The notes below the pieces were generated by a model, which saw only the letters and a list, made by a program, of their open reading frames with translations, did not search any database and had not been told where the DNA came from. DNA of 64,000 nucleotides from Escherichia coli (lineage in GTDB: Bacteria > Pseudomonadota > Gammaproteobacteria > Enterobacterales > Enterobacteriaceae). Made by a program: the position numbers and the translations under genes. The stretch lies in NCBI RefSeq assembly GCF_044324785.1, contig NZ_CP172127.1; one strand, 5' to 3'. How positions within the stretch are numbered: the stretch's first letter is position 1; every line of letters starts with the position of its first letter. Of the stretch, positions 47,222 to 64,000 are shown piece by piece.

Positions 47222-47327
47222 CAGAAACACAGAAAAGAAGCGATTTGCCGCAATCTTAAGCAGTTGAATCGCTTTTACTGAAATTAGGTTGACGAGATGT
47301 GCATATTACGGTTTAATGCGCCCCGTT

Positions 47328-47403: not shown

Positions 47404-47579
47404 CTTTCACTTCCAGATTCATCTCCCGAACTCCACGAAACTCAAGTATAATCACATCGTTACAAGCAATCTGAACATCCTGAACTCCACCGAACTCTAC
47501 TGAACTCTCTCTCAATCAAGCGTTCATTGGGGGCACCGGTGGGGGCTCATTGTGTTCAGTCAGTTTCAGGAGCCCCCAT

Positions 47580-48764
47580 ATGGCACTTACAGCCAGACAG
47601 GTCGAAACAGCCAGACCTAAAGAAAAAGACTATAAACTCTCTGACGAACGTGGTTTATATCTGCTGGTAAAAACCACGGGTGCCCGCTACTGGCGGCTTA
47701 AATACCGGATAGCAGGAAAAGAGAAAAAACTGGCCCTCGGCGTCTATCCCGACGTCTCCCTTGCTGAAGCCAGAATCAAACGCGACGATGCCCGAAAAAT
47801 TATCTCCGAAGGTGGCGACCCGGGCGAAAAGAAGCGAAAGGAAAAACTCACTCAGAAAATCTCTGCCACCAATACGTTCCATGCCCTTGCTACGGAATGG
47901 CATCAGCATAAATCTTTGTCATGGTCTGAAAGTTACGCCAGAAGCGTACTGGAGGCTCTGGATAAAGATATTTTCCCGTATCTGGGCAAACGAAGCGTTA
48001 CTGATATCCTCCCGCTGGAAATGCTGGAAATTCTGCGCCGCATAGAAAAACGTGGCTCGCTGGAAAAACTTCGTAAGGTGCGTCAATACTGTAATCAGAT
48101 TTTTCGTTATGCCATCGCCACCGGACGAGCCACTGTCAATCCGGCATCTGAACTGACCAGTACGCTGGCGGCGCCAAAAGCTGCACATTTCCCCCACCTG
48201 AGAGCAGATGAGCTCCCTGTTTTTCTCCGGAAGCTCGCTGAATATCATGGCAGTCCTGTTACCCGCATGGCGACAAATCTGCTGCTTCTGACAGGCCTCA
48301 GAACGATTGAACTACGGTCCGCTGAATGGTCAGAAATTGATTTTGATAATGCCCTGTGGACAATCCCTGAAAGCCGCATGAAAATGCGACGTAAACATGT
48401 CGTACCACTGTCACGACAGGCCACTGACATTCTGCTGCAGCTCAAAACTTTCTCCGGACAATACCGGCTGGTTTTCCCGGGACGTTGTGATATCAACAAG
48501 CCAATGAGCGAAGCCAGCATCAATATGGTGCTCAAACGTATCGGTTACGATGGCAGGGCAACCGGTCATGGTTTTCGTCACACCATGAGTACCATTCTGC
48601 ACGAACAGGGCTTTAATTCTGCCTGGATTGAAATGCAGTTAGCTCATGTGGATAAAAATTCCATCAGGGGTACCTATAATCATGCCCTGTATCTCGATGG
48701 TCGCCGTGAAATGATGCAATGGTACGCTGACTACATTGATTCACTTTCCATCCAGGAGAGTTAA
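47580..48764 (+). CDS. P4-type tyrosine integrase adjacent to tRNA-Phe
   Basis: Start MALTARQVETARPKEKDYKLSDERGLYLLV with SD caggag upstream; catalytic R...HxxR...Y residues (HGFRHT, RGTYNHALY); N-terminal arm-binding-type domain. Confidence 0.88.
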   Translation: MALTARQVETARPKEKDYKLSDERGLYLLVKTTGARYWRLKYRIAGKEKKLALGVYPDVSLAEARIKRDDARKIISEGGDPGEKKRKEKLTQKISATNTFHALATEWHQHKSLSWSESYARSVLEALDKDIFPYLGKRSVTDILPLEMLEILRRIEKRGSLEKLRKVRQYCNQIFRYAIATGRATVNPASELTSTLAAPKAAHFPHLRADELPVFLRKLAEYHGSPVTRMATNLLLLTGLRTIELRSAEWSEIDFDNALWTIPESRMKMRRKHVVPLSRQATDILLQLKTFSGQYRLVFPGRCDINKPMSEASINMVLKRIGYDGRATGHGFRHTMSTILHEQGFNSAWIEMQLAHVDKNSIRGTYNHALYLDGRREMMQWYADYIDSLSIQES

Positions 48765-48849
48765 TTACACTTTGTCCTGAAATTATTCTCACAATCAATA
48801 ACCTTTCCCTCTGATCTTACAGATCAGAGGGATTCCGTTAACTTACAAT

Positions 48850-48889
48850 AAGTGATATTGGTTGTCTGGAGATTTAGGGGGACGGTCTA
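48850..48889. repeat. Solo IS2 left-end-like terminal repeat upstream of rafR
   Basis: aagtgatattggttgtctggagatttagggggacggtcta is near-identical to the terminal repeat of the complete IS2 at 58363-58402, in the same orientation. Confidence 0.5.
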
Positions 48890-48913
48890 CTATAATAATT
48901 AGCAGGAGATAAT

Positions 48914-49924
48914 ATGTCACTTAAGGCGATTGCCACTGCACTCGGAGTTTCTGTCACCACTGTCAGTCGGGCTCTTGGAGGCTATGCAGATGTGTCAGCT
49001 TCCACCCGTGCACGGGTGGAAGCTGAAGCTCGTCGACGCGGTTACCGTCCTAATACTCAGGCAAGAAGACTCAAAACCGGTAAAACCGATGCTGTCGGTC
49101 TGGTTTATCCTGGACGTGATGTGCCATTTAACAGTGGTGTTTTTATGGATATGGTCAGTTGCATCAGCCGGGAACTTGCTCACCATGATATTGACTTACT
49201 ACTGATAGCTGATGATGAGCATGCCGATTGCCACAGCTATATGCGGCTTGTTGAAAGTCGCAGGGTTGATGCTCTCATCATTGCACACACTCTGGATGAC
49301 GATCCCCGTATCACACACCTTCATAAAGCAGGTATTCCATTTCTGGCTCTTGGTCGGGTACCATCTGGTCTGCCCTGTGCGTGGTTTGACTTTGATAATC
49401 ATGCCGGGACTGGACAGGCAACCCAGAAACTGATTGCTTTGGGACATAAACGTATTGCATTGTTGAGTGAAGACACTTCACATAGCTATGTTGTTGCAAG
49501 ACGTCAGGGATGGCTTGATGCACTGAATGAGCATGAACTGGAAGATACATGGCTGCGGCTGGTTTCTCCCACACGGCGAGCAGGATATCAGGCCGTGATG
49601 GAGTTAATGTCACTACCGATACCACCAACAGCTATTATTACTGACAATGACCTGAGTGGAGATGGTGCTGCCATGGCACTGCAGTTGAGCGGTCGTCTTT
49701 CAGGAAAAGATGCGGTATCTCTGGTTGTATATGATGGTTTGCCACAGGACAGTATTATTGAGCTGGATGTGGCTGCAGTTATTCAGTCAACACGAAGCCT
49801 CGTTGGTCGCCAGATTTCCGAGATGATATATCAGATAATTACTGATTCATCATCAAAACCACTACAGGTTGTCTGGAACCCGGTATTTTATCCGGGAAAG
49901 ACGATTCATCCTCCTTGCTCCTGA
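48914..49924 (+). CDS. rafR: LacI-family raffinose operon repressor RafR
   Basis: N-terminal HTH (MSLKAIATALGVSVTTVSRALGG) plus periplasmic-binding-protein-like sugar domain; 336 aa; precedes rafA. Confidence 0.8.
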   Translation: MSLKAIATALGVSVTTVSRALGGYADVSASTRARVEAEARRRGYRPNTQARRLKTGKTDAVGLVYPGRDVPFNSGVFMDMVSCISRELAHHDIDLLLIADDEHADCHSYMRLVESRRVDALIIAHTLDDDPRITHLHKAGIPFLALGRVPSGLPCAWFDFDNHAGTGQATQKLIALGHKRIALLSEDTSHSYVVARRQGWLDALNEHELEDTWLRLVSPTRRAGYQAVMELMSLPIPPTAIITDNDLSGDGAAMALQLSGRLSGKDAVSLVVYDGLPQDSIIELDVAAVIQSTRSLVGRQISEMIYQIITDSSSKPLQVVWNPVFYPGKTIHPPCS

Positions 49925-49945
49925 TTTTTTTATCCAGCTCACATA

Positions 49946-49981
49946 TCCGAAACGTTTTGGTTGATACCCGAAACGTTTCGG
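49946..49981 (+). promoter_or_regulatory. Putative RafR operator pair flanking the rafA -35 box
   Basis: Near-palindrome tccgaaacgttttgg, then ttgata (-35-like), then the perfect palindrome ccgaaacgtttcgg, all in the rafR-rafA intergenic region. Confidence 0.55.
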
Positions 49982-50019
49982 ATCAACAGTAAGGCATCCC
50001 TGAGAAAGGAGAATGTCTT

Positions 50020-52146
50020 ATGGTTTCAAAGTACTGCAGACTGAGCAGTCCTCGCTCTGATTTAATTATTAAAACCCGTCCACATGCAGAAATTATCTGG
50101 TGGGGCTCTGCACTGAAACATTTCTCACCGGATGACTGTGCCAGCCTGGAAAGACCGGTTGCGAATGGTCGTCTGGATATTGATACGCCACTAACACTGA
50201 TGGCTGAAAATGCCCTGGGACTTTTTAGCTCTCCGGGACTGGAAGGACACAGGAATGGGCTGGATGCATCTCCTGTTTTTTATACAGTTGACGTGGAACA
50301 TACCGAAAACACTCTGAGACTTACCAGTGAAGATTCGGTAGCCGGCCTGCGTCTGGTCAGCGAGCTGGTGATGACGCCATCAGGAATTCTGAAAGTTCGT
50401 CATGCACTGACCAACCTCAGAGAGGGGGACTGGCAGATAAATCGTTTCGCCATCACTTTACCTTTAGCGGAACGTGCGGAAGAAGTCATGGCTTTTCACG
50501 GACGCTGGACTCGTGAATTTCAGCCGCACAGGGTACGTCTCACTCATGATGCTTTTGTTCTGGAAAATCGCAGAGGGCGGACATCTCATGAGCATTTTCC
50601 GGCGCTGATTGTCGGCACGCCAGGCTTCTCGGAACAACAGGGAGAGGTGTGGGCTGTGCATCTGGGGTGGAGTGGAAATCACCGCATGAGATGTGAGGCA
50701 AAAACTGACGGCAGGCGTTACGTTCAGGCTGAGGCTCTGTGGATGCCGGGTGAGAAGGCTCTCAGGAAGAATGAAACCCTGTACACCCCGTGGCTATATG
50801 CCTGCCACTCTGCGGATGGCCTGAATGGAATGAGTCAGCAATACCATCGTTTTTTGCGTGATGAAATTATCCGTTTCCCTGAGCAAAAACCCCGCCCTGT
50901 ACATCTCAATACCTGGGAAGGTATTTATTTCAATCACAATCCTGATTACATCATGCAGATGGCTGAGCGTGCAGCAGCACTGGGCGTTGAACGTTTCATT
51001 ATTGATGATGGCTGGTTTAAAGGACGTAACGATGACCGCGCGGCTCTGGGCGACTGGTATACCGATGAACAGAAATACCCGAACGGGCTGATGCCGGTTA
51101 TTAAACATGTGAAATCTCTCGGTATGGAATTTGGCATATGGGTTGAGCCGGAAATGATTAACCCGGATTCTGACCTGTTTCGTCTTCATCCTGACTGGGT
51201 ATTGTCAATGCCTGGATATTCCCAGCCAACCGGAAGATATCAGTATGTTCTTAACCTGAATATTCCAGAGGCCTTTGCTTACATTTATGAACGTTTCTTA
51301 TGGTTACTGGGAGAACATCCGGTTGATTATGTGAAATGGGACATGAATCGTGAGCTTGTACAGGCAGGGCATGAAGGCCGTGCGGCAGCAGATGCACAGA
51401 CCCGTCAGTTCTATCGATTGCTTGATCTCCTCCGTGAACGTTTTCCACATGTTGAGTTTGAGTCCTGTGCTTCCGGTGGGGGGCGTATTGACTTCGAAGT
51501 CCTGAAACGCACACACCGGTTCTGGGCATCTGACAATAATGATGCCCTGGAGCGCTGCACCATACAACGTGGCATGAGTTACTTTTTCCCTCCTGAGGTG
51601 ATGGGGGCGCATATTGGCCATCGCCGCTGCCATGCAACTTTCCGGCAGCACAGCATCGCTTTTCGTGGGCTGACGGCATTGTTCGGCCATATGGGGCTGG
51701 AGCTGGATCCGGTGGCCGCAGATGCGAAGGAATCTGACGGTTATCGCCGGTATGCCTTGCTCTATAAAGAATGGCGACAACTGATTCATACAGGAGTTCT
51801 CTGGCGTGTGGATATGCCAGATCCTTCGATACAGGTTCAGGGAGTCGTCAGCCCTGATCAGTCTCAGGCACTTTTTATGATCAGCCAGCTTGCAATGCCG
51901 GATTACACCTTACCAGGCATACTTCGTTTTCCCGGTCTGGCGGCGGAAGTGCGTTACCGGCTTCGGGTTATTGATCACCCGGACCTCCAGGTGGTTGGTG
52001 AAGGCGGTCATACCATGCGCAAATTACCTGTCTGGATGAATCAGAGCCTTGAGGCCAGTGGTGAATGGCTGGCACAGGGAGGGATTCAGCTCCCCGTACT
52101 GGATCCGGAGAGTGCGATTTTGATAGCACTTGAAAGAGCTGTGTGA
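50020..52146 (+). CDS. rafA: Alpha-galactosidase (GH36) RafA
   Basis: 708-aa ORF with GH36 architecture; SD aaaggag upstream; first gene of the rafABD cluster. Confidence 0.85.
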   Translation: MVSKYCRLSSPRSDLIIKTRPHAEIIWWGSALKHFSPDDCASLERPVANGRLDIDTPLTLMAENALGLFSSPGLEGHRNGLDASPVFYTVDVEHTENTLRLTSEDSVAGLRLVSELVMTPSGILKVRHALTNLREGDWQINRFAITLPLAERAEEVMAFHGRWTREFQPHRVRLTHDAFVLENRRGRTSHEHFPALIVGTPGFSEQQGEVWAVHLGWSGNHRMRCEAKTDGRRYVQAEALWMPGEKALRKNETLYTPWLYACHSADGLNGMSQQYHRFLRDEIIRFPEQKPRPVHLNTWEGIYFNHNPDYIMQMAERAAALGVERFIIDDGWFKGRNDDRAALGDWYTDEQKYPNGLMPVIKHVKSLGMEFGIWVEPEMINPDSDLFRLHPDWVLSMPGYSQPTGRYQYVLNLNIPEAFAYIYERFLWLLGEHPVDYVKWDMNRELVQAGHEGRAAADAQTRQFYRLLDLLRERFPHVEFESCASGGGRIDFEVLKRTHRFWASDNNDALERCTIQRGMSYFFPPEVMGAHIGHRRCHATFRQHSIAFRGLTALFGHMGLELDPVAADAKESDGYRRYALLYKEWRQLIHTGVLWRVDMPDPSIQVQGVVSPDQSQALFMISQLAMPDYTLPGILRFPGLAAEVRYRLRVIDHPDLQVVGEGGHTMRKLPVWMNQSLEASGEWLAQGGIQLPVLDPESAILIALERAV

Positions 52147-52208
52147 AGAGAGGTACGGAGCCTCAGCTCCGTCCTGTTTCTCAATATTATCCCGTGAGGG
52201 TAAGAATA

Positions 52209-53486
52209 ATGAATTCTGCAAGTACGCATAAAAATCCCGATTTCTGGATTTTCGGTCTGTTCTTCTTTCTCTACTTTTTCATCATGGCAACCTGTTTTCC
52301 GTTTTTGCCTGTATGGCTGTCCGATGTGGTCGGACTGAGTAAAACGGATACAGGTATAGTCTTTTCATGTCTTTCTCTGTTTGCCATCAGTTTCCAGCCA
52401 TTGCTTGGGGTCATATCAGATCGCCTGGGACTGAAAAAAAACCTGATCTGGAGTATCAGCCTGTTACTTGTATTTTTCGCCCCCTTTTTTTTATATGTAT
52501 TTGCGCCCCTGCTGCGCTTCAATATCTGGGCAGGCGCACTGACTGGCGGTGTCTTTATTGGTTTTGTGTTTTCTGCAGGTGCCGGAGCTATTGAAGCTTA
52601 TATAGAGCGGGTCAGTCGCAGTCGTGGATTTGAATACGGTAAAGCGAGGATGTTCGGGTGTCTGGGCTGGGCGTTATGTGCGGCTATGGCTGGAATGCTT
52701 TTTAATGTCGATCCTTCTCTGGTTTTCTGGATGGGGTCAGTAAGCGCATTATTGTTGCTTCTTCTGTTGTTTCTGGCGCGCCCCAGTACCAGCCAGACGG
52801 CAATGGTTATGAATACACTGGGTGCCAATTCTTCCCTGATTTCGACCAGAATGGTCTTCAGCCTGTTTCGCATGCGTCAGATGTGGATGTTTGTTCTCTA
52901 CACGATTGGTGTGGCCTGTGTCTATGATGTATTTGATCAGCAGTTTGCCACATTTTTTCGTTCATTCTTTGACACTCCTCAGGCAGGAATAAAAGCATTC
53001 GGATTTGCTACCACTGCGGGGGAGATTTGTAATGCCATTATCATGTTCTGTACACCATGGATAATTCATCGCATTGGTGCCAAAAATACCCTGCTTGTTG
53101 CGGGGGGAATTATGACCATCCGCATTACCGGTTCTGCTTTTGCCACCACCGCGACAGAAGTGGTGATTCTGAAAATGCTTCACGCTCTTGAAGTTCCATT
53201 TTTGCTGGTTGGGGCGTTCAAATATATTACGGCAGTGTTTGACACCCGACTGTCAGCGACCGTTTATTTAATAGGTTTTCAGTTTTCCAAACAACTTGCT
53301 GCAATACTTCTCTCTACCTTTGCCGGCCACCTGTATGATCGTATGGGATTCCAGAATACGTATTTTGTGCTCGGGATGATTGCTCTGACTGTTACCGTGA
53401 TATCAGTTTTCACGCTGAGTTCTTCCCGCGGGAGCGTACACCCTTCTGTAGAAAAAGCCCCTGCAGCGCATTCGGAGATTAACTGA
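52209..53486 (+). CDS. rafB: Raffinose permease RafB (LacY-like MFS symporter)
   Basis: Start inferred at MNSASTHKNPDFWIFGLFFFLYFFIMATCFPFLPVWL (LacY-like N-terminus), about 425 aa with 12 TM segments. Confidence 0.85.
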   Translation: MNSASTHKNPDFWIFGLFFFLYFFIMATCFPFLPVWLSDVVGLSKTDTGIVFSCLSLFAISFQPLLGVISDRLGLKKNLIWSISLLLVFFAPFFLYVFAPLLRFNIWAGALTGGVFIGFVFSAGAGAIEAYIERVSRSRGFEYGKARMFGCLGWALCAAMAGMLFNVDPSLVFWMGSVSALLLLLLLFLARPSTSQTAMVMNTLGANSSLISTRMVFSLFRMRQMWMFVLYTIGVACVYDVFDQQFATFFRSFFDTPQAGIKAFGFATTAGEICNAIIMFCTPWIIHRIGAKNTLLVAGGIMTIRITGSAFATTATEVVILKMLHALEVPFLLVGAFKYITAVFDTRLSATVYLIGFQFSKQLAAILLSTFAGHLYDRMGFQNTYFVLGMIALTVTVISVFTLSSSRGSVHPSVEKAPAAHSEIN

Positions 53487-54916
53487 TGAAACAGCGTCTT
53501 GCTTTGGCACAGTCTGCCCTTGAAAAACTTTGCGCACGTCGTGGTAATGCCTGGTACCCGATTTTTCATCTGGCTCCACCTGCCGGCTGGATGAATGATC
53601 CAAATGGCCTTATTTACTTCAATGGGCGTTACCATGCGTTCTTCCAGCATCATCCTGCAAGCGCATATCAGGGGCCAATGCACTGGGGGCATGCCACCAG
53701 TACCGACATGTTGCACTGGCAACACGAACCTGTCGCGCTGGCACCCGGAGATAAATATGATCGTGATGGCTGTTTTTCAGGGAGTGCCGTGGATGATGAT
53801 GGCGTGCTATCACTTATTTATACTGGTCATATTTGTCTCGATGATCGTGGTAATGACAGCATTATCCGTGAAGTACAGTGTCTGGCTACAAGTCATGATG
53901 GTATTCACTTTGAGAAGCAGGGCTGTGTGCTGACACCTCCGGAAGGTATAATGCATTTCCGTGATCCCAAAGTCTGGCACGAAGACGGCTCCTGGTGGAT
54001 GGTCATTGGTGCCCGGGACGCTTCTGACAATGGGCAAGTTCTGTTGTATCGCGGGACATCTTTGCGGGACTGGCATCTGGAGCATGTTCTTGCTCATTCC
54101 GCAGCCGGAAAAAGTTATATGTGGGAATGCCCCGATTTCTTCAGGTGTGGTAATTTTCACTGGCTGATGTTCTCACCACAGGGGATGCCCCCTTCCGGTT
54201 ATCGGTTCCGTAACCTTTTTCAGAGCGGTGTGTTGGCAGGGAGCTGGAAGCCTGGTTCTGTCTTTGCGCTGAAAGGGGGATTTGAAGAGCTGGATTATGG
54301 TCATGACTTTTATGCTCCACAGTCCATGCTGGCTGAGGACGGCAGGCGTATCATTATGGCATGGATGAATATGTGGGATTCACCCGTGCCCACCCGCAGT
54401 GAAGCCTGGGCAGGATGTCTGACGCTGCCCAGAGAGGTTTTTGAGCGCGATGGCCGGCTGTGCCAGCGACCTGTGCGTGAAGTCGAATCTCTGCGCAAAA
54501 AATGCCAGCCATTATCCCCTGTAAGGTTACAGGGTTTGCAATTACTGACCGAAAATGTACAGGCCGCAGAATTATTGGTGACGTGGCATACGGTTGACAG
54601 TCATGCGGAGCACTATGGCGTCCGCCTTGGAGACGGTCTGCGACTTTATGTGGATAATCAGGCCGGGCGACTGGTACTGTGGCGCTATTACCCTGAGGAA
54701 GGGTTGGATGGTTACCGCAGTGTTGAACTTCCTGATACAGAATATCTGACTCTTCGTATTTTCTTGGATCGTTCATCTGTTGAAGTGTTTGTTAACGATG
54801 GTGAGGCAACCTTATCAAGTCGTATTTATCCGCAAGCGGACTCGAGACAATTATCGTTATATGCCGCTCATGGCGATGCGATATTAACTGATGGCACTTT
54901 ATGGATGCTGACCTGA
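53486..54916 (+). CDS. rafD: Sucrose-6-phosphate hydrolase/invertase (GH32) RafD
   Basis: GH32 signature WMNDPNG plus the RDP and EC motifs; start overlaps the rafB stop (TGATG). Confidence 0.85.
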   Translation: MKQRLALAQSALEKLCARRGNAWYPIFHLAPPAGWMNDPNGLIYFNGRYHAFFQHHPASAYQGPMHWGHATSTDMLHWQHEPVALAPGDKYDRDGCFSGSAVDDDGVLSLIYTGHICLDDRGNDSIIREVQCLATSHDGIHFEKQGCVLTPPEGIMHFRDPKVWHEDGSWWMVIGARDASDNGQVLLYRGTSLRDWHLEHVLAHSAAGKSYMWECPDFFRCGNFHWLMFSPQGMPPSGYRFRNLFQSGVLAGSWKPGSVFALKGGFEELDYGHDFYAPQSMLAEDGRRIIMAWMNMWDSPVPTRSEAWAGCLTLPREVFERDGRLCQRPVREVESLRKKCQPLSPVRLQGLQLLTENVQAAELLVTWHTVDSHAEHYGVRLGDGLRLYVDNQAGRLVLWRYYPEEGLDGYRSVELPDTEYLTLRIFLDRSSVEVFVNDGEATLSSRIYPQADSRQLSLYAAHGDAILTDGTLWMLT

Positions 54917-55110
54917 GACATATCGATATCAGTATTTTTTCTGACATTATCTGTCATTACTTTGCCAGTACACATTAATTATCTTTGCTGTGTGCTTTTG
55001 GTAATGTGTTGCGATTATATATACCAGTCTGGTGAAGAATATGAATGGTATTTTGTGTTGATACAGAGAATATAAGAGTACCCACATTTGTTTTTATTTA
55101 AGGGGGTAAA

Positions 55111-56505
55111 ATGAATAAGTTACTTTTGGGTTTATCTCTTTTTTTATTACTGGAATACAATGCGTGTGCAGCAAAAACAGGGGGGCTAACGCTTGAACAA
55201 AGAATGGCATTGCTGGAAGAACGCCTGGAAGCTGCAGAAAAAAGGGCGGAAAAAGCAGAAAGAATGTTAAAGAGTTTTGATATAGAACAACATTCTGAAA
55301 TACGTCAAATTAGTTCAGAGCAGAATAAAAAAGATGCTAACAGCTATGCAGTAGTTGAGTCAACAAAAGAAAAAACATCTTCTCCAGGTTTTCTGCTCTC
55401 TGGTTACAATGATTTGAAGTTTTATGGTGATGTGGAGTTTAATATAGATGCTGCCAGTAAACCCGGTCAGTTAGTAATGATAAGTTCCGGGGCGAACAGT
55501 GAGTCAGTGAATGAACGGTGGGACCTTAATGGCCGTATTCTATTAGGTTTTGACGGTACCCGTAAGCTTGATAATGGTTATTTCGCTGGATTTTCAGCAC
55601 AACCACTGGCGGATATGCACGGTTCAGTGAATATTGATGATGCATTATTCTTTTTTGGAAAAGATGACGAGTGGAAAGTGAAAGTCGGTCGTTTTGAAGC
55701 TTACGATATGTTCCCTCTAAATCAGGATACTTTCATTGAGTATTCCGGTAATACAGCTAATGATATTTATGCTGATGGCCGTGGTTATATCTATATGATG
55801 AAAGAGGGACGCGGTCGTTCTGACGCTGGTGGTAATTTCCTCATCAGTAAACAACTCGATAACTGGTATTTTGAGTTAAACACGTTACTTGAAGACGGAA
55901 CATCTTTATATAATAACGGTAATTATCATGGACGATATATGGAGCAGCAGAAAAATGTCGCTTATCTGCGCCCGGTAATTGCCTGGTCGCCAACGGAAGA
56001 ATTCACAGTCTCCGCAGCGATGGAAGCGAACGTGGTAAAAAATGCTTATGGCTATACCGATAATAAGGGGAATTTTGTCGATCAGTCCAATCGTTCCGGT
56101 TATGGTATTAGCATGACATGGAACGGTCTGAAAACAGATCCGGAAAATGGCATCGTGGTTACTCTTAATACCGCCTATTTGGATGCCAGTAATGAGAAAG
56201 ATTTCACTGCCAGTATTAATGCTCTGTGGAAACGTTTCGAACTGGGTTATATCTACGCACATAATAAGATTGATGAATTTAGTGGTGTCGTGTGTAATAA
56301 TGGTTGCTGGATTGATGGTGAAGGAATATACAACATTCACACCATTCATGCATCTTATCAGTTTGCTAATGTGATGGATATGGAGAACTTTAATATTTAC
56401 CTCGGGGCTTATTACTCAATTCTGGATAGTAACTGTAGATATAGTAATTGTGACATTACCGATGATCGTTACGGTGCCCGATTACGTTTCAAATACTTTT
56501 TTTGA
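55111..56505 (+). CDS. rafY: Raffinose glycoporin RafY
   Basis: 464-aa protein with signal peptide, N-terminal coiled-coil (LEERLEAAEKRAEKAERMLK) and beta-rich body ending in an aromatic residue (RFKYFF), typical of outer-membrane porins. Confidence 0.8.
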   Translation: MNKLLLGLSLFLLLEYNACAAKTGGLTLEQRMALLEERLEAAEKRAEKAERMLKSFDIEQHSEIRQISSEQNKKDANSYAVVESTKEKTSSPGFLLSGYNDLKFYGDVEFNIDAASKPGQLVMISSGANSESVNERWDLNGRILLGFDGTRKLDNGYFAGFSAQPLADMHGSVNIDDALFFFGKDDEWKVKVGRFEAYDMFPLNQDTFIEYSGNTANDIYADGRGYIYMMKEGRGRSDAGGNFLISKQLDNWYFELNTLLEDGTSLYNNGNYHGRYMEQQKNVAYLRPVIAWSPTEEFTVSAAMEANVVKNAYGYTDNKGNFVDQSNRSGYGISMTWNGLKTDPENGIVVTLNTAYLDASNEKDFTASINALWKRFELGYIYAHNKIDEFSGVVCNNGCWIDGEGIYNIHTIHASYQFANVMDMENFNIYLGAYYSILDSNCRYSNCDITDDRYGARLRFKYFF

Positions 56506-57005
56506 TGCATAGTAACAAAGTATTGTTCCACACTTACATTAACGCGTTTTTCGGGCGCGTCATCAGCGATGCATACGAATGATCGCAGTCTGCCAATGGT
56601 CGATTTATCTTGGTTGCGCAGGGGCGAGCACCGGGCAGGTACCGGCGGCTGACTCTGAAGCTCTGAGTCGGGTAATTGCGTCAGGTCACGAAGGACTGAC
56701 ACGGGTATTGGTGGCAGGTGATGAAGTACTGAGTGTGGTAATTTCGGGGATGCAATGCAGGAGCTGAGTCAGGTTTGCACTGAGCTGAGGACCCGTAGCG
56801 AGCGGGTTCCTGCTATTTTTCGGTGTCAGGGGCGCAAGTCCCGACGTCGGGACTTGCCGGGAGATTGTCAGGTCATTGACCGGGTGTGAGCGGCTCGACG
56901 TAAGCGGTAGATATGCCCAATTCCCCCCGATAAATTCATTACCAAACACATTATTCAATTTGTTTTTATTTTTCCGCTTTCAGTCATTATCGCTATCGCT
57001 TCGTC

Positions 57006-57071
57006 GGTAATGACTCCAACTTATTGATAGTGTTTTATGTTCAGATAATGCCCGATGACTTTGTCATGCAG
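57006..57071. mobile_element. IS1 terminal fragment (66 bp), truncated by the IS2 insertion
   Basis: ggtaatgactccaacttattgatagtgttttatgttcagataatgcccgatgactttgtcatgcag is identical to the first 66 bp of the complete IS1 at 59354; it abuts the IS2 end directly. Confidence 0.8.
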
Positions 57072-57082
57072 TGGATTTGCCC

Positions 57083-57988
57083 CTATATTTCCAGACACCT
57101 GTTATCACTTAACCCATTACTGGTCCGCTGCCGCAGATATTCCCGTGGCGAGCGATAACCCAGCGCACTATGCGGATGCCATTCGTTATAATGCTCGAAC
57201 GCCTCTGCAAGGTTCTTTGCTGCCGTTAACCCGTCTGGTTTGGGCATGATACTGATGTAGTCACGCTTTATCGTTTTCACGAAGCTCTCTGCTATTCCGT
57301 TACTCTCCGGACTCCGCACCGCCGTGTTCTTCGGTTCAAGTCCCAACATCCGGGCGAACTGGCGTGTTTCATTAGCCCGGTAGCATGAACCATTATCCGT
57401 CAGCCACTCCACTGGAGACGACGGAAGATCGTTGCCGAAGCGGCGTTCCACCGCTCCTGGCATGACGTCCTGTACTGTTTCACTGTTGAAGCCGCCGGTA
57501 GTGACCGCCCAGTGCAGTGCCTCACGATCACAGCAGTCCAGCGCGAACGTGACACGCAGTCTCTCTCCGTTATCACAGCAGAACTCGAACCCGTCAGAGC
57601 ACCATCGCTGATTGCTTTCTTTCACGGCCACTCTGCCAGTATGTGCCCGTTTCGATGGCGGTACAGCGGTTTTTCGCTCAAGCAACAGCGCATTCTGGCG
57701 CATGATCCGGTAAACACGTTTGGCATTGATCGCAGGCATACCATCAAGTTCGGCCTGTCTGCGAAGCAGCGCCCATACCCGACGATAACCATACGTGGGC
57801 AGCTCTCCGATAACATGGTGTATACGGAGAAGCACATCCGTATCATCTGAGTGACGGCTGCGGCGACCATCTTTCCAGTCATCGGTTCGTCTGAGAATTA
57901 CGTGCAACTGCGCACGCGACACCCGGAGACAACGGCTGACTAAGCTTACTCCCCATCCCCGGGCAATAAGGGCGCGTGCGCTATCCAC
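57083..57988 (-). CDS. insD: IS2 transposase OrfB (InsD)
   Basis: 301-aa DDE transposase [30 protein letters not shown]. Confidence 0.92.
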
Positions 57989-58311
57989 TTTTTTGCACGC
58001 CCGTATTCAACGGCTTCTTTAAGGAGTTCATTTTCCATCGTTTTTTTGCCGAGCAGGCGCTGGAGTTCTTTAATCTGCTTCATGGCAGCAGCAAGTTCAG
58101 AGGCAGGAACGACCTGCTCTCCTGCGGCCACAGCAGTAAGACTTCCCTCCTGGTATTGCTTGCGCCAGAGAAATAACTGGCTGGCTGCCACACCGTGTTG
58201 CCGGGCAACAAGGGAGACCGTCATTCCCGGTTCAAAACTCTGCTGAACAATAGCGATCTTTTCCTGTGTAGTACGCCGTCTGCGTTTCTCCGGTCCTAAG
58301 ACATCAATCAT
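57946..58311 (-). CDS. insC: IS2 OrfA (InsC)
   Basis: Start [43 protein letters not shown] protein; 3' end overlaps insD in the programmed frameshift arrangement. Confidence 0.9.
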
Positions 58312-58562
58312 CTGCTCTCCAATGACTAGTCTAAAAACTAGTATTAAGACTATCACTTATTTAAGTGATATTGGTTGTCTGGAGATTCATGGGGCCAGTC
58401 TAGCAGATTATGGTGCGCAGTTATACAACAGCAGTAATGAGGAGTCTACTATTTCTCTTGTTATGCCAGATGCAATTGAATGGAACGGAAAGAATACGCC
58501 AAGACGGCAATACATGATAAAATATATTGCCGTATTTAAATATTAAAATTTATTTTTGTAGA

Positions 58563-58952
58563 TCATCTGAATTTTCGGTGACCTTCAAGTTTTATATCGT
58601 TCATTTTATCCAGAGACTCACGTAATGATTCTATATTCCCGTCCTCAACTTTCTTTTTTGCAATATTGATTTCATGTTGTAGTTTTTTTAACTCTTCCTT
58701 ATAACTATCTACAGAAACTTTATCATTAACATCTATCTTTTCAGGAATAATATTCATAGAAGAATCTACAGATTTATCCATCATTTCAAGAGCATTTAAT
58801 AGTGATGATTTATCATTGGAAGATTGTAGAATACTCATACTTTTGGCAAGAGACTGCATGTTTTTATCCAGGCCGGAAGCCAAAGATACGTTGCTGAGAG
58901 ATAAAAAAATAGCTAGTACAGCACCTGAGAAAAATACCTTTTGTTTTTTCAT
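58563..58952 (-). CDS. Secreted cytochrome b562-like four-helix-bundle protein (divergent CybC homolog)
   Basis: Start MKKQKVFFSGAVLAIFLSLSNVSLA (signal peptide); mature region aligns with cytochrome b562 including the Met heme ligand (SGLDKNM vs ADLEDNM) and C-terminal His (LEGHRKFR vs NAYHQKYR). Confidence 0.6.
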   Translation of the reverse strand: MKKQKVFFSGAVLAIFLSLSNVSLASGLDKNMQSLAKSMSILQSSNDKSSLLNALEMMDKSVDSSMNIIPEKIDVNDKVSVDSYKEELKKLQHEINIAKKKVEDGNIESLRESLDKMNDIKLEGHRKFR

Positions 58953-59368
58953 TAATATATTCCTGTTCAAAGTTGATTATAGTTATGTCAATTTAAGTTT
59001 ATTATTATGATTTTTTATTTTTGTACTATGAATCTCCTGTATGCTTATATGTGCAGAAAATCTCATTTTATCAAGAAGAATATCAAATTTTCTCCGATAC
59101 TTCTACATACTCCATCATTCATGCTCCTTTTATCCGTGCACCGTAAAACCCCGTCCTTCAGCGGGGGATATAAGGCGCTGTTTTCCACCTAACCAGGTGT
59201 CTGCTGCTATTCAATGTATTGGCGGATGACGGATGCCGCCCGTTGAAGCAGGACCCCTCGTCCTTAGGGCGTGGAGGATGTCAAAATGAAAACTTGTGGT
59301 ATGAATCAATCCATTCATCATCCTTTCGGATCATTGCATTCAGTATAACGCTGGGTAATGACTCCAAC

Positions 59369-59872
59369 TTATTGATAGTGTTTTATGTTCAGATAATGCC
59401 CGATGACTTTGTCATGCAGCTCCACCGATTTTGAGAACGACAGCGACTTCCGTCCCAGCCGTGCCAGGTGCTGCCTCAGATTCAGGTTATGCCGCTCAAT
59501 TCGCTGCGTATATCGCTTGCTGATTACGTGCAGCTTTCCCTTCAGGCGGGATTCATACAGCGGCCAGCCATCCGTCATCCATATCACCACGTCAAAGGGT
59601 GACAGCAGGCTCATAAGACGCCCCAGCGTCGCCATAGTGCGTTCACCGAATACGTGCGCAACAACCGTCTTCCGGAGACTGTCATACGCGTAAAACAGCC
59701 AGCGCTGGCGCGATTTAGCCCCGACATAGCCCCACTGTTCGTCCATTTCCGCGCAGACGATGACGTCACTGCCCGGCTGTATGCGCGAGGTTACCGACTG
59801 CGGCCTGAGTTTTTTAAGTGACGTAAAATCGTGTTGAGGCCAACGCCCATAATGCGTGCACTGGCACGACAT
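59369..59872 (-). CDS. insB: IS1 InsB
   Basis: 167 aa, [37 protein letters not shown]. Confidence 0.92.
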
Positions 59873-60066
59873 CCGACGCCATTCATGGCCATATCAATGA
59901 TTTTCTGGTGCGTACCGGGTTGAGAGGCGGTGTAAGTGAACTGTAGTTGCCATGTTTTACGGCAATGAGAGCAGAGATAGCGCTGATGTCCGGCAGTGCT
60001 TTTGCCGTTACGCACCACGCCTTCAGGAGCGGAGCAGGAAGGACATCTGATGGAAATGGAAGCCAC
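59791..60066 (-). CDS. insA: IS1 InsA
   Basis: 91 aa, [40 protein letters not shown]. Confidence 0.92.
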
Positions 60067-60329
60067 GCAAGCACCTTAAAATCACCATCATACACTAAAT
60101 CAGTAAGTTGGCACCATTACCTGACCAAGCTTCCTCTATTGCGGCACCTGATTGCATCAATATCGAAAGTGATAAGATCCTCTCACTAGCAGGGCATGAC
60201 AAGTGTAACTGCTGATTTGTTAGCCTGTTTTAAGTTTTTTAAGATCAATTATTTCTCATTTTTTGACTTTATTGCTAGCCGTGAAAATGCAAAGCCTATA
60301 GGATACAAAAATTACAATTTGTAGGTTTT

Positions 60330-60836
60330 GTGAGTCATATGAAGGCAACCAATATAGACCCTCAACTGCTTGAAAAAGCCACGAGTATCTTTGCTGAGTT
60401 GGGCTTACCTATTGAGCAGGCTATTAACGTCTTTTTAGCTAAATCCGTTCAAGCCAAAGGTTTTCCGTTTTCTGTTGCTCTTGAAAATGAAGTAGAGACA
60501 CGGGAAGTTGCACAAACGCAACACAATATCAGCAATGCAGAGATAACCGAAGCTATCCAAGACTTGGTTGAACATGCTCTACCACTGAGTGAAATAGAAA
60601 ACCTCACGCAGCTAACCTATTGTCGCAACATTTTTGGGTTGTCATTCCCCGTGCTCAAACTGGCTAAATCATCACGGCCAGAAGACATTCGCAGTGCAGC
60701 CAAAGATGCCAAAGAGCGAAACCGCTACTCCACCACTAAAGTGGCCCAGCGAGATGAAAAAACCTATGTTATTTGCACCCAATGGACCGACAGACATCGT
60801 TCTGCATTTTGCCGTTGGCAAGCCATCTTTAGCTAG
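60330..60836 (+). CDS. RelB/DinJ-like ribbon-helix-helix protein with an uncharacterised C-terminal extension
   Basis: N-terminal 50 aa (KATNIDPQLLEKATSIFAELGLPIEQAINVFLAKSVQAKGFPFSV) follow the DinJ pattern; the remaining 110 aa or so are unassigned; alternative ATG start at 60339; AT-rich; no toxin gene adjacent. Confidence 0.5.
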   Translation: MSHMKATNIDPQLLEKATSIFAELGLPIEQAINVFLAKSVQAKGFPFSVALENEVETREVAQTQHNISNAEITEAIQDLVEHALPLSEIENLTQLTYCRNIFGLSFPVLKLAKSSRPEDIRSAAKDAKERNRYSTTKVAQRDEKTYVICTQWTDRHRSAFCRWQAIFS

Positions 60837-60902
60837 AACGCAAAATAATAACCAAACAATACACTGATTTTTTAACGATTTAACTTCATTTAGGTAGTAT
60901 CA

Positions 60903-62882
60903 ATGAACTTACAAGACAAAGAACAAAGCGCCAAACTCTCCAGTGCTATTTGGCGTATGGCAGATGATTTATGGGGTGATTTCAAACACACCGATTTTGC
61001 GCGGATTATCCTGCCATTTTTGCTACTGCGTCGTATTGAATGCGTGTTAGAACCCACCCGTGAGGAAGTTCGTAAGTTCTATCTGGCCGAAAAACAATCC
61101 GGCATAGACCTTGGTTTAGTGTTGCCAGAAATTGCGGGATTCGCCTTTTACAACACCAGTGAATATAGCCTAGAAACCTTAGGCGCGTCAGACACCGGCG
61201 ACAACCTAGAACACTACATCAGCCAGTTCAGCAAAAACGTTCGTACCATCTTTGATGAGTTTAAATTTGGTCAAACCATAGAAGATCTGGAAAAAGCCAA
61301 GTTGCTGTATCGCATGGTAAACCATTTTGCCAACCTCGACTTGCATCCTGATGTAGTGTCTGACCGCGTATTATCAGATGCTTATGAAGAGCTGATTCTA
61401 AAGTTCGCCAGTTCGGTTAATGAAAAGGCCGGGGAATTTATGACCCCGCGTGATGCCGTGCGTCTTGCCACCAAACTGGTGCTGGCGGCGGATGAAGATA
61501 TCTTTAGTGAAAAGGGTGTGATCCGCACCATCTATGACCCAACCTGTGGCACGGGCGGTTTCCTTTCCGATGCCATTAGCCAAATTGAAGAAATGGGCAG
61601 CAGCGCTAAAGTCGTGCCTTTTGGTCAAGAGCTCGACCCCGCGACCCATGCCATGGCGCTGACCAATATGATGATCCGCGGTTTTGATGCCAATAACATC
61701 AAGCAAGGCAACACCTTATCAGACGATCAGTTACGTGCCGACAAGTTTCACTACGGCCTTGCCAACCCGCCATTTGGCATTAAGTGGGAAAAAGCCAAGA
61801 AAGAAGTAGAACGTGAGCACAAACAGCTCAAATACGCCGGACGCTTTGGGCCAGGCCTGCCGAGTATTTCTGATGGTTCAATGCTGTTTTTACTGCACTT
61901 GGTATCAAAAATGGAAACGCCGGAAAATGGTGGTGGCCGAGTGGGTATAGTCCTTTCTGGCTCGCCACTGTTTAATGGCGATGCAGGCTCAGGCCCATCA
62001 GAAATCCGCCGTTGGCTGCTAGAACAAGACTTAGTCGAAGCGATTGTTGCCCTGCCAACCGATATGTTCTTCAACACCGGCATTGGCACCTACATCTGGA
62101 TTTTGACTAACCATAAAGAGCCAAGACGCAAGAATCAGGTGCAACTGATTAACTTGGCAGATATTTGGACTCCCATGCGTAAATCGCAAGGCGATAAGCG
62201 CAAGTACCTGAGTGATGAACAGATTGACGATATTGTCCGTGCGTACGATGGCTTTGAAGCCAGTGACAACTGTAAGATCTTCCAGACTACTGATTTTGCC
62301 TACCGTAAAGTCACCATTCAGCGTCCACTGCGTGCCAAACTAGATATTACCGCTGCGGGCATTGCTGCATTTGTGCAGCAAGATACGTTTAAAAAACTCA
62401 AACCAGAGCAACAAGCGGCATGGGTACAATACCTCACCGATAACCTTGGCCTTCAGCCTTATGAATGGGCACGTTTGGCGGTTAAGAAGAATAACAATAA
62501 GGGTGACTTTGGTAAGTGCTCAAAAGCACTGGCTACGGCCTTAACTGCGCACTTTGTAAAAATTGATCCGCAATTTGAGCCTGCACTGGATGAAAAAGGC
62601 CAAGTGATCGCCGACCCTAAACTCAAAGACACCGAAAGCATTCCTTTTGACCGCGACGTTGAAGATTACTTCGCACAAGAGGTGCTGCCACATGTACCGG
62701 ATGCCTTTATTGATCACTCAGTGCGTGATGAAAAAGACGGCGAAGTGGGCATTGTCGGTTATGAAATTAACTTTAACCGCTATTTCTACCAATACGTGCC
62801 ACCACGCGAGTTGAGTGTGATTGATCGTGAGCTAAAAGCATGTGAAGCGCGCATTCAGGCTCTGCTGAATGAGGTGGCGTAA
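60903..62882 (+). CDS. hsdM: Type I restriction-modification N6-adenine DNA methyltransferase subunit HsdM
   Basis: 659 aa with AdoMet motif YDPTCGTGGFL and catalytic NPPFG; stop overlaps the hsdS start (TAATG). Confidence 0.88.
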   Translation: MNLQDKEQSAKLSSAIWRMADDLWGDFKHTDFARIILPFLLLRRIECVLEPTREEVRKFYLAEKQSGIDLGLVLPEIAGFAFYNTSEYSLETLGASDTGDNLEHYISQFSKNVRTIFDEFKFGQTIEDLEKAKLLYRMVNHFANLDLHPDVVSDRVLSDAYEELILKFASSVNEKAGEFMTPRDAVRLATKLVLAADEDIFSEKGVIRTIYDPTCGTGGFLSDAISQIEEMGSSAKVVPFGQELDPATHAMALTNMMIRGFDANNIKQGNTLSDDQLRADKFHYGLANPPFGIKWEKAKKEVEREHKQLKYAGRFGPGLPSISDGSMLFLLHLVSKMETPENGGGRVGIVLSGSPLFNGDAGSGPSEIRRWLLEQDLVEAIVALPTDMFFNTGIGTYIWILTNHKEPRRKNQVQLINLADIWTPMRKSQGDKRKYLSDEQIDDIVRAYDGFEASDNCKIFQTTDFAYRKVTIQRPLRAKLDITAAGIAAFVQQDTFKKLKPEQQAAWVQYLTDNLGLQPYEWARLAVKKNNNKGDFGKCSKALATALTAHFVKIDPQFEPALDEKGQVIADPKLKDTESIPFDRDVEDYFAQEVLPHVPDAFIDHSVRDEKDGEVGIVGYEINFNRYFYQYVPPRELSVIDRELKACEARIQALLNEVA

Positions 62883-64000
62883 TGAATGCTGGCAACATAG
62901 TAGATGCTTTCGTATCTGACTCGAAATGGAACTCAGTACCAGCTAAACGTTTATTTACGAGTAGCAAAGAAATCAATCAAGGAATGAAAGAATCTAATCG
63001 TCTTGCACTAACAATGAAAGGTGTCATAAACCGCTCGTTAGACGATTTACAAGGACTTCAATCTTCTGATTACTCTGTTTATCAGATTTTTGAAAAAGAT
63101 GACTTAGTTTTTAAGCTCATAGATCTTGAAAATATAAAGACTAGCCGAGTGGGGATTGTGCATGAACGAGGAATAATGAGCCCTGCATACATCCGTGTTT
63201 CAGCGAGTTCAAATAGCATCTACCCAAGGTTCTATTACTGGTACTTTTTTGCTCTATACCTAACCAATATTTATAACAAACTGGGTGGAGGAGTTCGTCA
63301 GAACCTAACAGCTGGTGATCTTTTAGAAATACCTGTTCCACTGATTGATATTTCATTACAGAAGCAGGTTAGCACATTCCTTGATCGCGAAACCCAGCGC
63401 ATCGACAGTCTGATCGAGGAAAAGCAGACCTTTATTAAGCTGCTCAAAGAAAAACGCCAAGCACTGATCAGCCATGTGGTCACAAAGGGGCTCTATCCCA
63501 ATGTGGAGATGCAGGACTCTGGCATCGAGTGGATTGGGCAAGTGCCGAAGCATTGGGAAGTCAAAAAGATAAAGCATATTTGCTCCAACTTTATGTATGG
63601 AACCTCTCAAGACTGTAACCAGTCTGATGTTGGCTATCCTGTTCTCAGGATACCAAACATCAAGAGTACCAATGTTGATTTTGAAGATCTCAAATATGCA
63701 AATATCAGTGATGTTGATGCTTTAACTTATCTTTTATCAAGAGGCGACATTTTAGTCATCAGAACTAACGGTAACCCTAATCTGGTCGGCCAAAGCGCGC
63801 TTTTTGATTCAAATGGGCAGTATTTATTTGCGTCGTACCTAATAAAGTTAACACCAAAGCAAGGAGTGGATACTAGCTTCTTAGTGGAAGCGATGAACTC
63901 ACTATCTGTTCGTCAAGCATTAACATTTCAGTCAAGAACATCGGTAGGTAACTACAACCTGAGCATTCCTTCACTAGCTAATACAAGTATTGCTATCCCA
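62882..64000 (+). CDS. hsdS: Type I restriction-modification specificity subunit HsdS, 5' partial (runs off the window end)
   Basis: Open frame from ATG 62882 to the window end (373 codons, manual translation); first variable target-recognition domain, conserved central segment FLDRETQRIDSLIEEKQTFIKLLKEKRQALISHVVTKGL, then a second variable domain. Confidence 0.8.
   Translation, partial: MNAGNIVDAFVSDSKWNSVPAKRLFTSSKEINQGMKESNRLALTMKGVINRSLDDLQGLQSSDYSVYQIFEKDDLVFKLIDLENIKTSRVGIVHERGIMSPAYIRVSASSNSIYPRFYYWYFFALYLTNIYNKLGGGVRQNLTAGDLLEIPVPLIDISLQKQVSTFLDRETQRIDSLIEEKQTFIKLLKEKRQALISHVVTKGLYPNVEMQDSGIEWIGQVPKHWEVKKIKHICSNFMYGTSQDCNQSDVGYPVLRIPNIKSTNVDFEDLKYANISDVDALTYLLSRGDILVIRTNGNPNLVGQSALFDSNGQYLFASYLIKLTPKQGVDTSFLVEAMNSLSVRQALTFQSRTSVGNYNLSIPSLANTSIAIP

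What the first reader, a model, noticed from the sequence alone, without database searches (positions are those of the whole stretch)
58563..58952. Divergent cytochrome b562-like gene trapped between IS2 and IS1
The 129-aa product has a Sec signal peptide and aligns with cytochrome b562 at both heme axial ligands: Met7 of the mature protein (SGLDKNM) and the C-terminal His (LEGHRKFR). It is otherwise highly diverged (Lys, Asn and Ser-rich, AT-rich codons) and lies in an island rather than at the native cybC locus. It is flanked by IS1 sequence on both sides in direct orientation, consistent with IS-mediated capture. The function of b562 itself is poorly understood, so a mobile, divergent paralog is unusual.
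Basis: partly seen in the sequence, partly recalled or inferred. Interest (0 to 1): 0.6.

Follow-up and report, generated by a model that had tools for sequence, protein, structure and literature searches.

The report
Mobile orphan cytochrome b562 paralogue
This is a real, intact gene for a secreted haem-binding cytochrome b562-family protein, carried on a plasmid-derived scrap of DNA between two insertion sequences; public databases already name it "cytochrome b562", so it is ordinary apart from a hint about what b562 proteins do.

Summary
Window 58563-58952 (- strand) encodes a 129-aa protein with a signal peptide. It matches Pfam Cytochrom_B562 (E 9.7e-15) and is predicted to fold as a four-helix bundle that superposes on solved b562 structures (TM 0.90, rmsd 1.4 A). 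Both haem axial ligands are kept (Met32 = mature Met7; His125 = His102). Together with one proline, these are the only invariant columns in a 26-sequence family alignment. dN/dS of 0.16-0.29 shows purifying selection.

It is not new. RefSeq calls this exact CDS "cytochrome b562" (WP_029490539.1). The clade occurs in 152 of 5426 complete E. coli genomes, mostly on large conjugative plasmids from poultry.

In the window the gene lies on a 951-bp plasmid-type fragment. The fragment is bounded by IS2 (preceded by a 66-nt IS1 remnant) and a complete IS1, inside a tRNA-Phe island, with no target-site duplications.

The useful extra is phylogenetic. Its closest relatives (43-49% identity, including pO157 L7018) all sit directly downstream of the periplasmic catalase-peroxidase KatP. 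The window gene is therefore an orphaned offshoot of a KatP-partner lineage. Its likely role is a periplasmic one-electron carrier, possibly in peroxide defence; this is inferred, not shown. Interest is low to moderate.

The parts
58563..58952 (-). CDS, 129-aa cytochrome b562-family precursor (identical coordinates to the RefSeq CDS WP_029490539.1 in strain 1517k)
58878..58952 (-). Signal peptide, residues 1-25 (MKKQKVFFSGAVLAIFLSLSNVSLA | SG...)
   Evidence: Hydrophobicity and -3/-1 rule. The model is disordered over residues 1-22 and the first helix starts at residue 24. Aligns with the CybC precursor signal peptide in PDB 9tmp. Cleavage is inferred, not shown.
58857..58859 (-). Met32 codon (mature Met7), predicted haem axial ligand
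   Evidence: Invariant column in the 26-sequence alignment; position read
58578..58580 (-). His125 codon (equivalent of CybC His102), predicted haem axial ligand
   Evidence: Invariant column; position read
58953..59049 (-). Upstream block conserved with the 72%-identical variant. It contains the RBS AGGA (58964-58961), a perfect TATAAT (58981-58976) and a scanned promoter-like site (59032-59004). Putative own promoter.
   Evidence: promoter function is inferred only
58497..58536 (-). Hairpins downstream of the stop codon (inverted repeat 58501-58515 / 58522-58536; terminator-like site 58509-58497)
   Evidence: weak, inferred
58403..59353 (.). 951-bp fragment shared at 99.4-99.7% identity with large conjugative E. 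coli/Klebsiella plasmids. This is the whole of the non-IS DNA between IS2 and IS1.
57072..58402 (-). IS2 (1331 bp; orfA/orfB with programmed frameshift). It lies downstream of the b562-like gene.
   Evidence: The same IS2-end/fragment junction survives as a 12-nt remnant in the plasmids.
57006..57071 (-). 66-nt IS1 end remnant, 100% identical to 59354-59419, in direct orientation
59354..60121 (-). Complete IS1 (768 bp) that cuts the plasmid-type fragment 401 bp upstream of the start codon. No 9-bp target duplication (taacgctgg versus tgaccaagc).
59151..59285 (.). About 134-nt GC-rich element. In the plasmids it occurs twice in direct orientation, bracketing the neighbouring LysR/AllF/AllG/carbamate-kinase cluster. 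Only one copy is present here.

Best explanation
The gene encodes a genuine, Sec-exported member of the cytochrome b562 family. The mature protein is about 104 residues and forms a four-helix bundle that should bind one non-covalent haem b through Met32 and His125.

It belongs to a small AT-rich subfamily found only in the accessory genome of E. coli (rarely Klebsiella), on conjugative plasmids and genomic islands. That subfamily is an offshoot of the b562 lineage encoded immediately downstream of the periplasmic catalase-peroxidase KatP (for example L7018 on pO157). The window copy has no KatP partner.

The gene sits with about 100 nt of its own conserved upstream sequence on a 951-bp plasmid-type fragment. 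IS2- and IS1-mediated rearrangements left this fragment inside a tRNA-Phe (pheU) island.

Inferred mechanism: a soluble periplasmic one-electron carrier. In its KatP/KatY-linked relatives it probably feeds electrons to the peroxidase cycle (in Yersinia from the membrane cytochrome b561 CybB). As an orphan it would have to use chromosomal partners.

Shown here: family membership, fold, ligand conservation, purifying selection, distribution and IS anatomy. Inferred: haem binding, export, and any role in peroxide defence.
For: - Family: Pfam PF07361 E 9.7e-15 over the full-length model; NCBIfam cytochrome b562 E 3.6e-18; PDB sequence hits are only b562.
- Fold: AF2 mean pLDDT 84 with four helices, 24-44, 48-66, 78-103 and 107-128. 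Foldseek top hits are all b562, TM 0.89-0.92, rmsd 1.3-1.5 A over 104 columns.
- Ligands: M32, P70 and H125 are the only invariant columns in 26 sequences. The mature protein has no Cys, so there is no c-type haem attachment.
- Selection: dN/dS 0.20 and 0.25 against the 66% and 72% variants, and 0.16-0.29 overall.
- Distribution: 138 genomes carry the near-identical gene, 152 of 5426 carry the clade, with 128 places on plasmids. 86 PLSDB plasmids, all predicted conjugative.
- Nearest relatives are KatP-linked: pO157 katP, a 46-nt gap, then b562, 45% identity; P0060, 43%; P0061, 49%; also the more distant P0075 and P0080. All these Kat proteins carry signal peptides.
- Literature: katY-cybC-cybB is an RT-PCR-verified operon in Y. 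pestis (PMC2231364). cybB and cybC are induced 7.5 and 6.7 log2-fold by H2O2 in Y. pseudotuberculosis (bioRxiv 10.64898/2026.03.04.709318). L7018 protein was detected in O157 and was 6.3-fold higher in piglets (PMC3686733).
- IS anatomy.
Against: - No experiment shows haem binding or export for this protein.
- It scores 66 bits against the CybC equivalog model, whose cut-off is 130, and is only 24% identical to CybC. Its redox properties may therefore differ.
- No KatP gene or remnant lies near any member of its own clade. Contexts of the clade's variants differ: LysR/AllF/AllG cluster, PhoX plus autotransporter, SSB/PerC/ProQ island. The peroxidase link is therefore by ancestry only.
- katP-bearing genomes are mostly STEC from cattle and humans, whereas this gene is mostly poultry-associated. 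A KatP partner in the same cell is unlikely, though overlap was not tested directly.
- The donor role of b562 towards KatP/KatY has not been demonstrated biochemically in any paper I found.
Confidence: 0.78

Rival explanations
1. It binds haem but acts as a periplasmic haem buffer, store or chaperone linked to iron/haem economy rather than as an electron carrier. That role would fit the iron-acquisition cargo of the poultry plasmids that carry it.
For: In plasmid pLH10-b-1-A the gene lies about 3.5 kb from an iron-type ABC transporter and MFS set. Y. pestis CybC is listed as Fur-associated and changes in abundance with iron status, alongside haemin-uptake proteins (PMC2835676). The physiological role of b562 is unsettled (own knowledge).
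Against: The best Fur-box match upstream is 13 of 19, reached or exceeded by about 13% of shuffles. There is no conserved linkage to haem-uptake genes in any context examined. The nearest relatives are linked to a peroxidase, not to transporters.
Confidence: 0.15
2. It is a functionless relic: a hitch-hiking leftover of a broken katP-b562 module, preserved only because it is young and rides on successful plasmids and islands.
For: It sits on a 951-bp scrap between two IS elements without target duplications. It is orphaned from KatP. It is AT-rich and so possibly silenced. Some database members are truncated or frameshifted (P0038, P0042).
Against: The ORF is intact in about 150 complete genomes. 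Three diverged variants (66-72% identity, dS 0.65-1.05) keep dN/dS at 0.16-0.25 and keep both ligands. An RBS and a -10 element are conserved with the 72% variant.
Confidence: 0.06
3. The b562 resemblance is coincidental: a generic helical, Lys/Ser-rich secreted protein.
For: Identity to CybC is only 19-24%, and direct PDB sequence E-values are weak (1e-3 to about 1).
Against: Profile E-values of 1e-15 to 1e-18 over the full length. The fold match is specific to b562, with TM 0.90. A chain of intermediates runs from 66% down to 27% identity, all with the Met and His ligands.
Confidence: 0.01

Closest known systems
L7018 / WP_001172748.1, the 'cytochrome b562' encoded downstream of katP on pO157 of E. 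coli O157:H7 (with its homologues P0060 and P0061)
   Same: Same length (129 aa), 45% identity over the full length with one gap. Same signal peptide, Met ligand and C-terminal GHxKFR motif. AT-rich and plasmid-borne. The protein is detected in vivo (PMC3686733).
   Different: L7018 lies 46 nt downstream of katP and is followed by espP. The window gene has no katP or remnant nearby, has its own upstream block, and occurs on different plasmids, islands and host populations.
E. coli CybC, soluble cytochrome b562 (PDB 256B; NCBIfam NF011632)
   Same: Periplasmic four-helix bundle of about 105 residues. Met7/His102 ligands aligned. No cysteines. Predicted structure superposes at 1.4 A.
   Different: Only 24% local identity. 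Scores 66 bits against a cut-off of 130 for the equivalog model. Heme-pocket Phe61 and Phe65 are Tyr and Leu, and Tyr101 is Gly (alignment). Sits on mobile DNA, not at the cybC locus.
Yersinia katY-cybC-cybB operon
   Same: It pairs a b562-family gene with a periplasmic catalase-peroxidase, as in the window gene's nearest relatives. The operon is verified by RT-PCR (PMC2231364), and cybB/cybC are strongly induced by H2O2 in Y. pseudotuberculosis (bioRxiv 10.64898/2026.03.04.709318).
   Different: The window has neither katY/katP nor cybB next to the gene. The E. coli plasmid modules examined also lack cybB.

Membership tests
Cytochrome b562 family (Pfam PF07361) | Significant full-length match to the family profile | tested here: met
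   PF07361 E 9.7e-15, 55.5 bits, model positions 2-102 of 102. Close homologues in the protein database carry precomputed PF07361.
Cytochrome b562 family (Pfam PF07361) | Antiparallel four-helix bundle of about 106 residues | tested here: met
   AF2 model pLDDT 84 with four helices. Foldseek against PDB: b562 entries with TM 0.89-0.92, rmsd 1.3-1.5 A. This is a prediction, not a solved structure.
Cytochrome b562 family (Pfam PF07361) | Met (helix 1) and His (helix 4) axial haem ligands | tested here: met
   M32 and H125 align with CybC Met7 and His102 and are invariant in 26 sequences. They are conserved in all clade variants with an intact C-terminus.
Cytochrome b562 family (Pfam PF07361) | Periplasmic location through a cleavable signal peptide | tested here: inconclusive
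   The n/h/c regions and the SLA|SG site are consistent with a signal peptide, and the region aligns with the CybC precursor signal peptide. No dedicated predictor or experiment was available.
Cytochrome b562 family (Pfam PF07361) | Non-covalent haem b (no CXXCH motif); characteristic reduced alpha band near 562 nm | not testable with these tools
   The mature protein has no Cys, which is compatible with b-type haem. Haem binding and the spectrum need the protein itself.
CybC equivalog (NCBIfam NF011632, 'cytochrome b562') | Score at or above the curated cut-off of 130 bits | tested here: not met
   66 bits. It is a paralogous subfamily, not an orthologue of CybC.
KatP/KatY-partnered b562 module | Gene immediately downstream of a signal-peptide-bearing KatG-type catalase-peroxidase | tested here: not met
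   tblastn with KatP finds nothing in the window or in the contexts of clade variants. The feature is met by the nearest relatives.
IS1 composite transposon | Two functional IS1 copies bracketing the cargo, with a target-site duplication outside them | tested here: not met
   The left copy is a 66-nt stub, with IS2 between it and the gene. The complete IS1 has no 9-bp duplication. In the plasmids a different IS1 abuts a 12-nt IS2 remnant.

The most novel reading that the evidence does not exclude
The mobile b562 clade and its KatP-linked sisters may reveal the long-unclear physiological job of cytochrome b562: the dedicated periplasmic electron donor that lets KatP/KatY-type catalase-peroxidases work as peroxidases. 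On this reading the orphan copy on poultry-associated plasmids and tRNA-Phe islands is a free-standing, horizontally traded periplasmic redox shuttle. It would plug into host partners such as CybB and contribute to oxidative-stress fitness in avian and extraintestinal E. coli.
Probability: 0.2. Interest if true: 0.5.

Novelty: already known. Interest (0 to 1): 0.25.

Why it matters
As a sequence feature it matters little. It is an already catalogued accessory gene that RefSeq names correctly.

Two points have modest value.

First, cytochrome b562 is one of the most used model and engineering proteins (BRIL fusions, metal-directed assemblies), yet its natural role is poorly defined. The b562 genes most similar to this one are consistently fused into two-gene modules with a periplasmic catalase-peroxidase. 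Together with the H2O2-induced katY-cybC-cybB operon of Yersinia, this gives a directly testable hypothesis for that role.

Second, the locus is a clear small example of how IS1 and IS2 rearrangements move scraps of plasmid cargo into chromosomal tRNA islands. The same island is found at pheU here and at pheV in another strain.

Tried and rejected
- KatP remnant: I looked for one upstream of the gene with tblastn (KatP against the window, L002, L003 and L007). Nothing was found.
- Fur box upstream: the best match is 13 of 19, reached or exceeded by about 13% of shuffles, so it is not significant.
- Structured RNA in the GC-rich upstream element: there was no Rfam hit above noise (HgcC 15 bits against a gathering score of 50), and the fold z-score was -0.78.
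- Species-representative genomes: I scanned 100,044 of them for the clade. Only five tiny contigs came back. All are katP-L7018 fragments binned into Lachnospiraceae MAGs or into Acinetobacter and Terrisporobacter assemblies, most likely contamination. The clade is therefore essentially confined to the E. coli accessory genome.
- First genome scan attempt: the scan with the 26-sequence alignment failed because the alignment had no sufficiently conserved stretch.
- P0032: this 82% 'variant' next to the LysR/AllF/AllG cluster looked like independent evidence of linkage. It is an assembly chimera across an NN gap, with a window-type N-terminus and a P0036-type remainder, so I discarded it.
- Literature: searches for this gene on ColV/APEC plasmids, and for a stated KatP-b562 functional link, found nothing specific.
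- Clean IS1 composite transposon: rejected because there are no target duplications and one IS1 is only a 66-nt stub.

Full report
**1. What is there**

Window 58563-58952 on the minus strand is an open reading frame of 129 codons from an ATG. An AGGA sequence lies 8 nt upstream of that ATG. The mechanical ORF list extends to a TTG six codons further up. The ATG start is the one RefSeq uses for the same CDS in E. coli strain 1517k (WP_029490539.1, product 'cytochrome b562'). The window is 99.9% identical to that strain's island from position 47280 to 64000.

The N-terminus has the three regions of a Sec signal peptide: KKQK, a hydrophobic core, and SLA|SG.

**2. Is it a cytochrome b562?**

Sequence evidence:
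- Pfam PF07361 matches at E 9.7e-15 over the whole model.
- The NCBIfam cytochrome b562 model matches at E 3.6e-18, but at 66 bits against a curated cut-off of 130.
- Every sequence hit in the PDB is a b562.
- Identity to E. coli CybC is only 24% locally and 19% in the global alignment.

Ligand evidence: in an alignment of 26 family members drawn from an exhaustive search of 1.84 billion representative proteins, the only invariant columns are Met32, Pro70 and His125. Met32 and His125 align with the haem axial ligands Met7 and His102 of CybC. The mature protein has no cysteine, so a c-type attachment is excluded.

Structural evidence: an AlphaFold2 model (mean pLDDT 84, pTM 0.73) has four helices. 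Its best Foldseek matches in the PDB are all cytochrome b562 or b562 fusion partners, with target-normalised TM 0.89-0.92 and rmsd 1.3-1.5 A over 104 columns.

Haem binding and export remain predictions.

**3. Is it a live gene?**

- Near-identical copies occur in 138 of 5426 complete E. coli genomes.
- Including variants down to about 74% nucleotide identity, 152 genomes carry a member.
- Three diverged variants exist (about 98%, 72% and 66% protein identity), plus an 81% variant from Klebsiella. All those with an intact C-terminus keep LDKNMQ and HRKFR.
- Pairwise dN/dS is 0.20-0.25 against the window gene and 0.16-0.29 across the wider set, with dS of 0.65-1.05 within the clade. That indicates purifying selection on a protein.

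**4. Where it lives and how it got here**

Most copies (128 of 147 places) are on plasmids. The 86 PLSDB plasmids with the fragment are all predicted conjugative and are mostly from chickens, ducks, turkeys and humans.

In such a plasmid (pLH10-b-1-A, L002) the order is as follows:
- a complete IS1;
- a 12-nt remnant of the IS2 right end;
- the b562 gene;
- about 430 nt of spacer;
- a LysR regulator, then a cytosine-permease / AH_C / carbamate kinase / AllG / AllF (FdrA) / DUF2877 / cysteine hydrolase cluster.

In the window, only 951 bp of this DNA (58403-59353) is present, at 99.5% identity. The boundaries are:
- On the downstream side of the gene it abuts a complete IS2 (57072-58402). The junction is exactly the one preserved as a remnant in the plasmids.
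- Left of IS2 is a 66-nt IS1 end fragment (57006-57071). It is identical to, and in the same orientation as, the end of the complete IS1 at 59354-60121 that truncates the fragment on the upstream side.
- Neither IS is flanked by a target duplication. For IS1 the flanks are taacgctgg and tgaccaagc. For IS2 they are tgcag and gcaga.

The elements therefore mark recombination or deletion junctions rather than simple insertions.

The whole structure lies in an island that starts at a tRNA-Phe gene (47328-47403) with an integrase. The island then carries a raffinose-type sugar cluster ending in a carbohydrate porin (55111-56505), and beyond the IS1 a RelB/DinJ-type antitoxin and a type I restriction-modification system. 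The chromosomal flank in the window is dcuA-cutA-dsbD, that is pheU. In strain 1517k the same island is at pheV, next to yqgA.

**5. A small self-contained cassette**

Between the clade's variants, DNA similarity is confined to the coding region plus about 97 nt upstream and about 60 nt downstream.

The contexts differ:
- the LysR/AllF/AllG cluster (type A);
- a chromosomal island with SSB/PerC/ProQ and a YebF-like gene (type B);
- an IncFII plasmid, between a PhoX phosphatase and an autotransporter (type C).

The conserved upstream block contains a perfect TATAAT (GATAAT in the 72% variant) and the RBS. The gene probably has its own promoter; this is an inference.

**6. Nearest relatives and what they suggest**

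Outside its own 50%-identity cluster, the closest proteins are P0061 (49%, truncated by a contig end), pO157 L7018 (45%) and P0060 (43%). The next full-length relatives are at 25-34%.

Each of these three lies 39-46 nt downstream of a 736-738-aa KatG-type peroxidase. On pO157 that gene is katP. Two more distant relatives that I sampled, P0075 and P0080, have the same arrangement. All these Kat proteins start with signal peptides. A sixth sampled relative, P0065, is an orphan in the leading region of an F-like plasmid.

In the literature:
- katY-cybC-cybB is an RT-PCR-verified operon in Yersinia pestis (PMC2231364).
- cybB and cybC are among the most strongly H2O2-induced genes in Y. pseudotuberculosis, together with the catalase genes (bioRxiv 10.64898/2026.03.04.709318).
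- L7018 protein is detectable in O157:H7 and was 6.3-fold higher in infected piglets (PMC3686733).

I found no paper that tests b562 as an electron donor to KatP/KatY.

The best-supported reading is that the window gene descends from a KatP-partner b562 and has been separated from the peroxidase. No katP remnant is detectable near any clade member. katP itself sits on about 92-kb STEC plasmids from cattle and humans (482 genomes), a different population from the poultry-associated carriers of this gene. I did not test co-occurrence directly.

Mechanistically I commit to a periplasmic one-electron haem-b carrier. A role in peroxide defence is about one chance in three. Haem buffering and a functionless relic are the rivals.

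**7. Comparison with known families, and novelty**

It is a member of the cytochrome b562 family: profile, fold and ligands are all met. It is not an equivalog of CybC, because the curated cut-off is not met. It is not, in this locus, part of a KatP module.

The exact protein is already in RefSeq under the name cytochrome b562.

What is not in the literature I could search is the systematic KatP-b562 pairing of its relatives and the orphan status of this clade. That is a modest, testable lead on the physiological role of a much-used model protein.

**8. Verdict**

- Observation: confirmed.
- Interpretation: supported, with the corrections above.
- Novelty: already known (annotated; a member of a known family).
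- Interest: 0.25.

Noticed in passing
window 59151-59285; L002 15752-15885 and 24438-24571: A 134-nt GC-rich element upstream of the b562-like gene occurs twice (98% identical, direct orientation) in the plasmids. The two copies exactly bracket the 8-gene LysR / cytosine permease / carbamate kinase / AllG / AllF / DUF2877 / cysteine hydrolase cluster, as if marking an inserted module. There is no Rfam match and no unusual fold stability.
   Followed up: partly
window 47328-64000 compared with L001 (strain 1517k): The same island (99.9% identical) is attached to tRNA-Phe next to dcuA-cutA-dsbD (pheU) in the window, but next to yqgA (pheV) in strain 1517k. One island therefore uses both tRNA-Phe sites.
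   Followed up: partly
window 48914-56505: A raffinose-operon-like cluster lies just inside the island: LacI-type regulator, alpha-galactosidase, MFS permease, GH32 hydrolase and a 464-aa carbohydrate porin with an N-terminal coiled-coil extension. It resembles the plasmid raf genes (rafRABDY) as I recall them; this resemblance was not tested here (RefSeq names).
   Followed up: no
window 60330-60836 and 60903-62882: A 168-aa RelB/DinJ-family antitoxin-like ORF with no adjacent toxin gene lies immediately upstream of a type I restriction-modification hsdM gene.
   Followed up: no
L003 4821-8390; L023 1-143 and 9001-9390: The 66% and 72% variants of the gene both have a PhoX-family phosphatase nearby. 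In L003 it is directly upstream. In the chromosomal island L023 it is about 9 kb away, across several IS elements. This hints at an older PhoX-b562 neighbourhood.
   Followed up: no
L016-L020: katP-b562 fragments 97-99% identical to pO157 are present as tiny contigs in Lachnospiraceae MAGs; short fragments of the pO157-type b562 gene alone occur in Acinetobacter idrijaensis and Terrisporobacter mayombei assemblies. These are probably binning or contamination artefacts.
   Followed up: partly
L021 about 5890 (NN gap): Database protein P0032 (82% 'variant') is a chimera across an assembly gap. It joins a window-type N-terminus to a P0036-type remainder and is not a real intermediate.
   Followed up: yes
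L015 5001-5384: Another b562-family orphan (P0065, 30% identity to the window protein) sits in the leading region of an F-like plasmid, between the SLT transglycosylase and psiAB. Solitary b562 genes on plasmids are therefore not limited to this clade.
   Followed up: no
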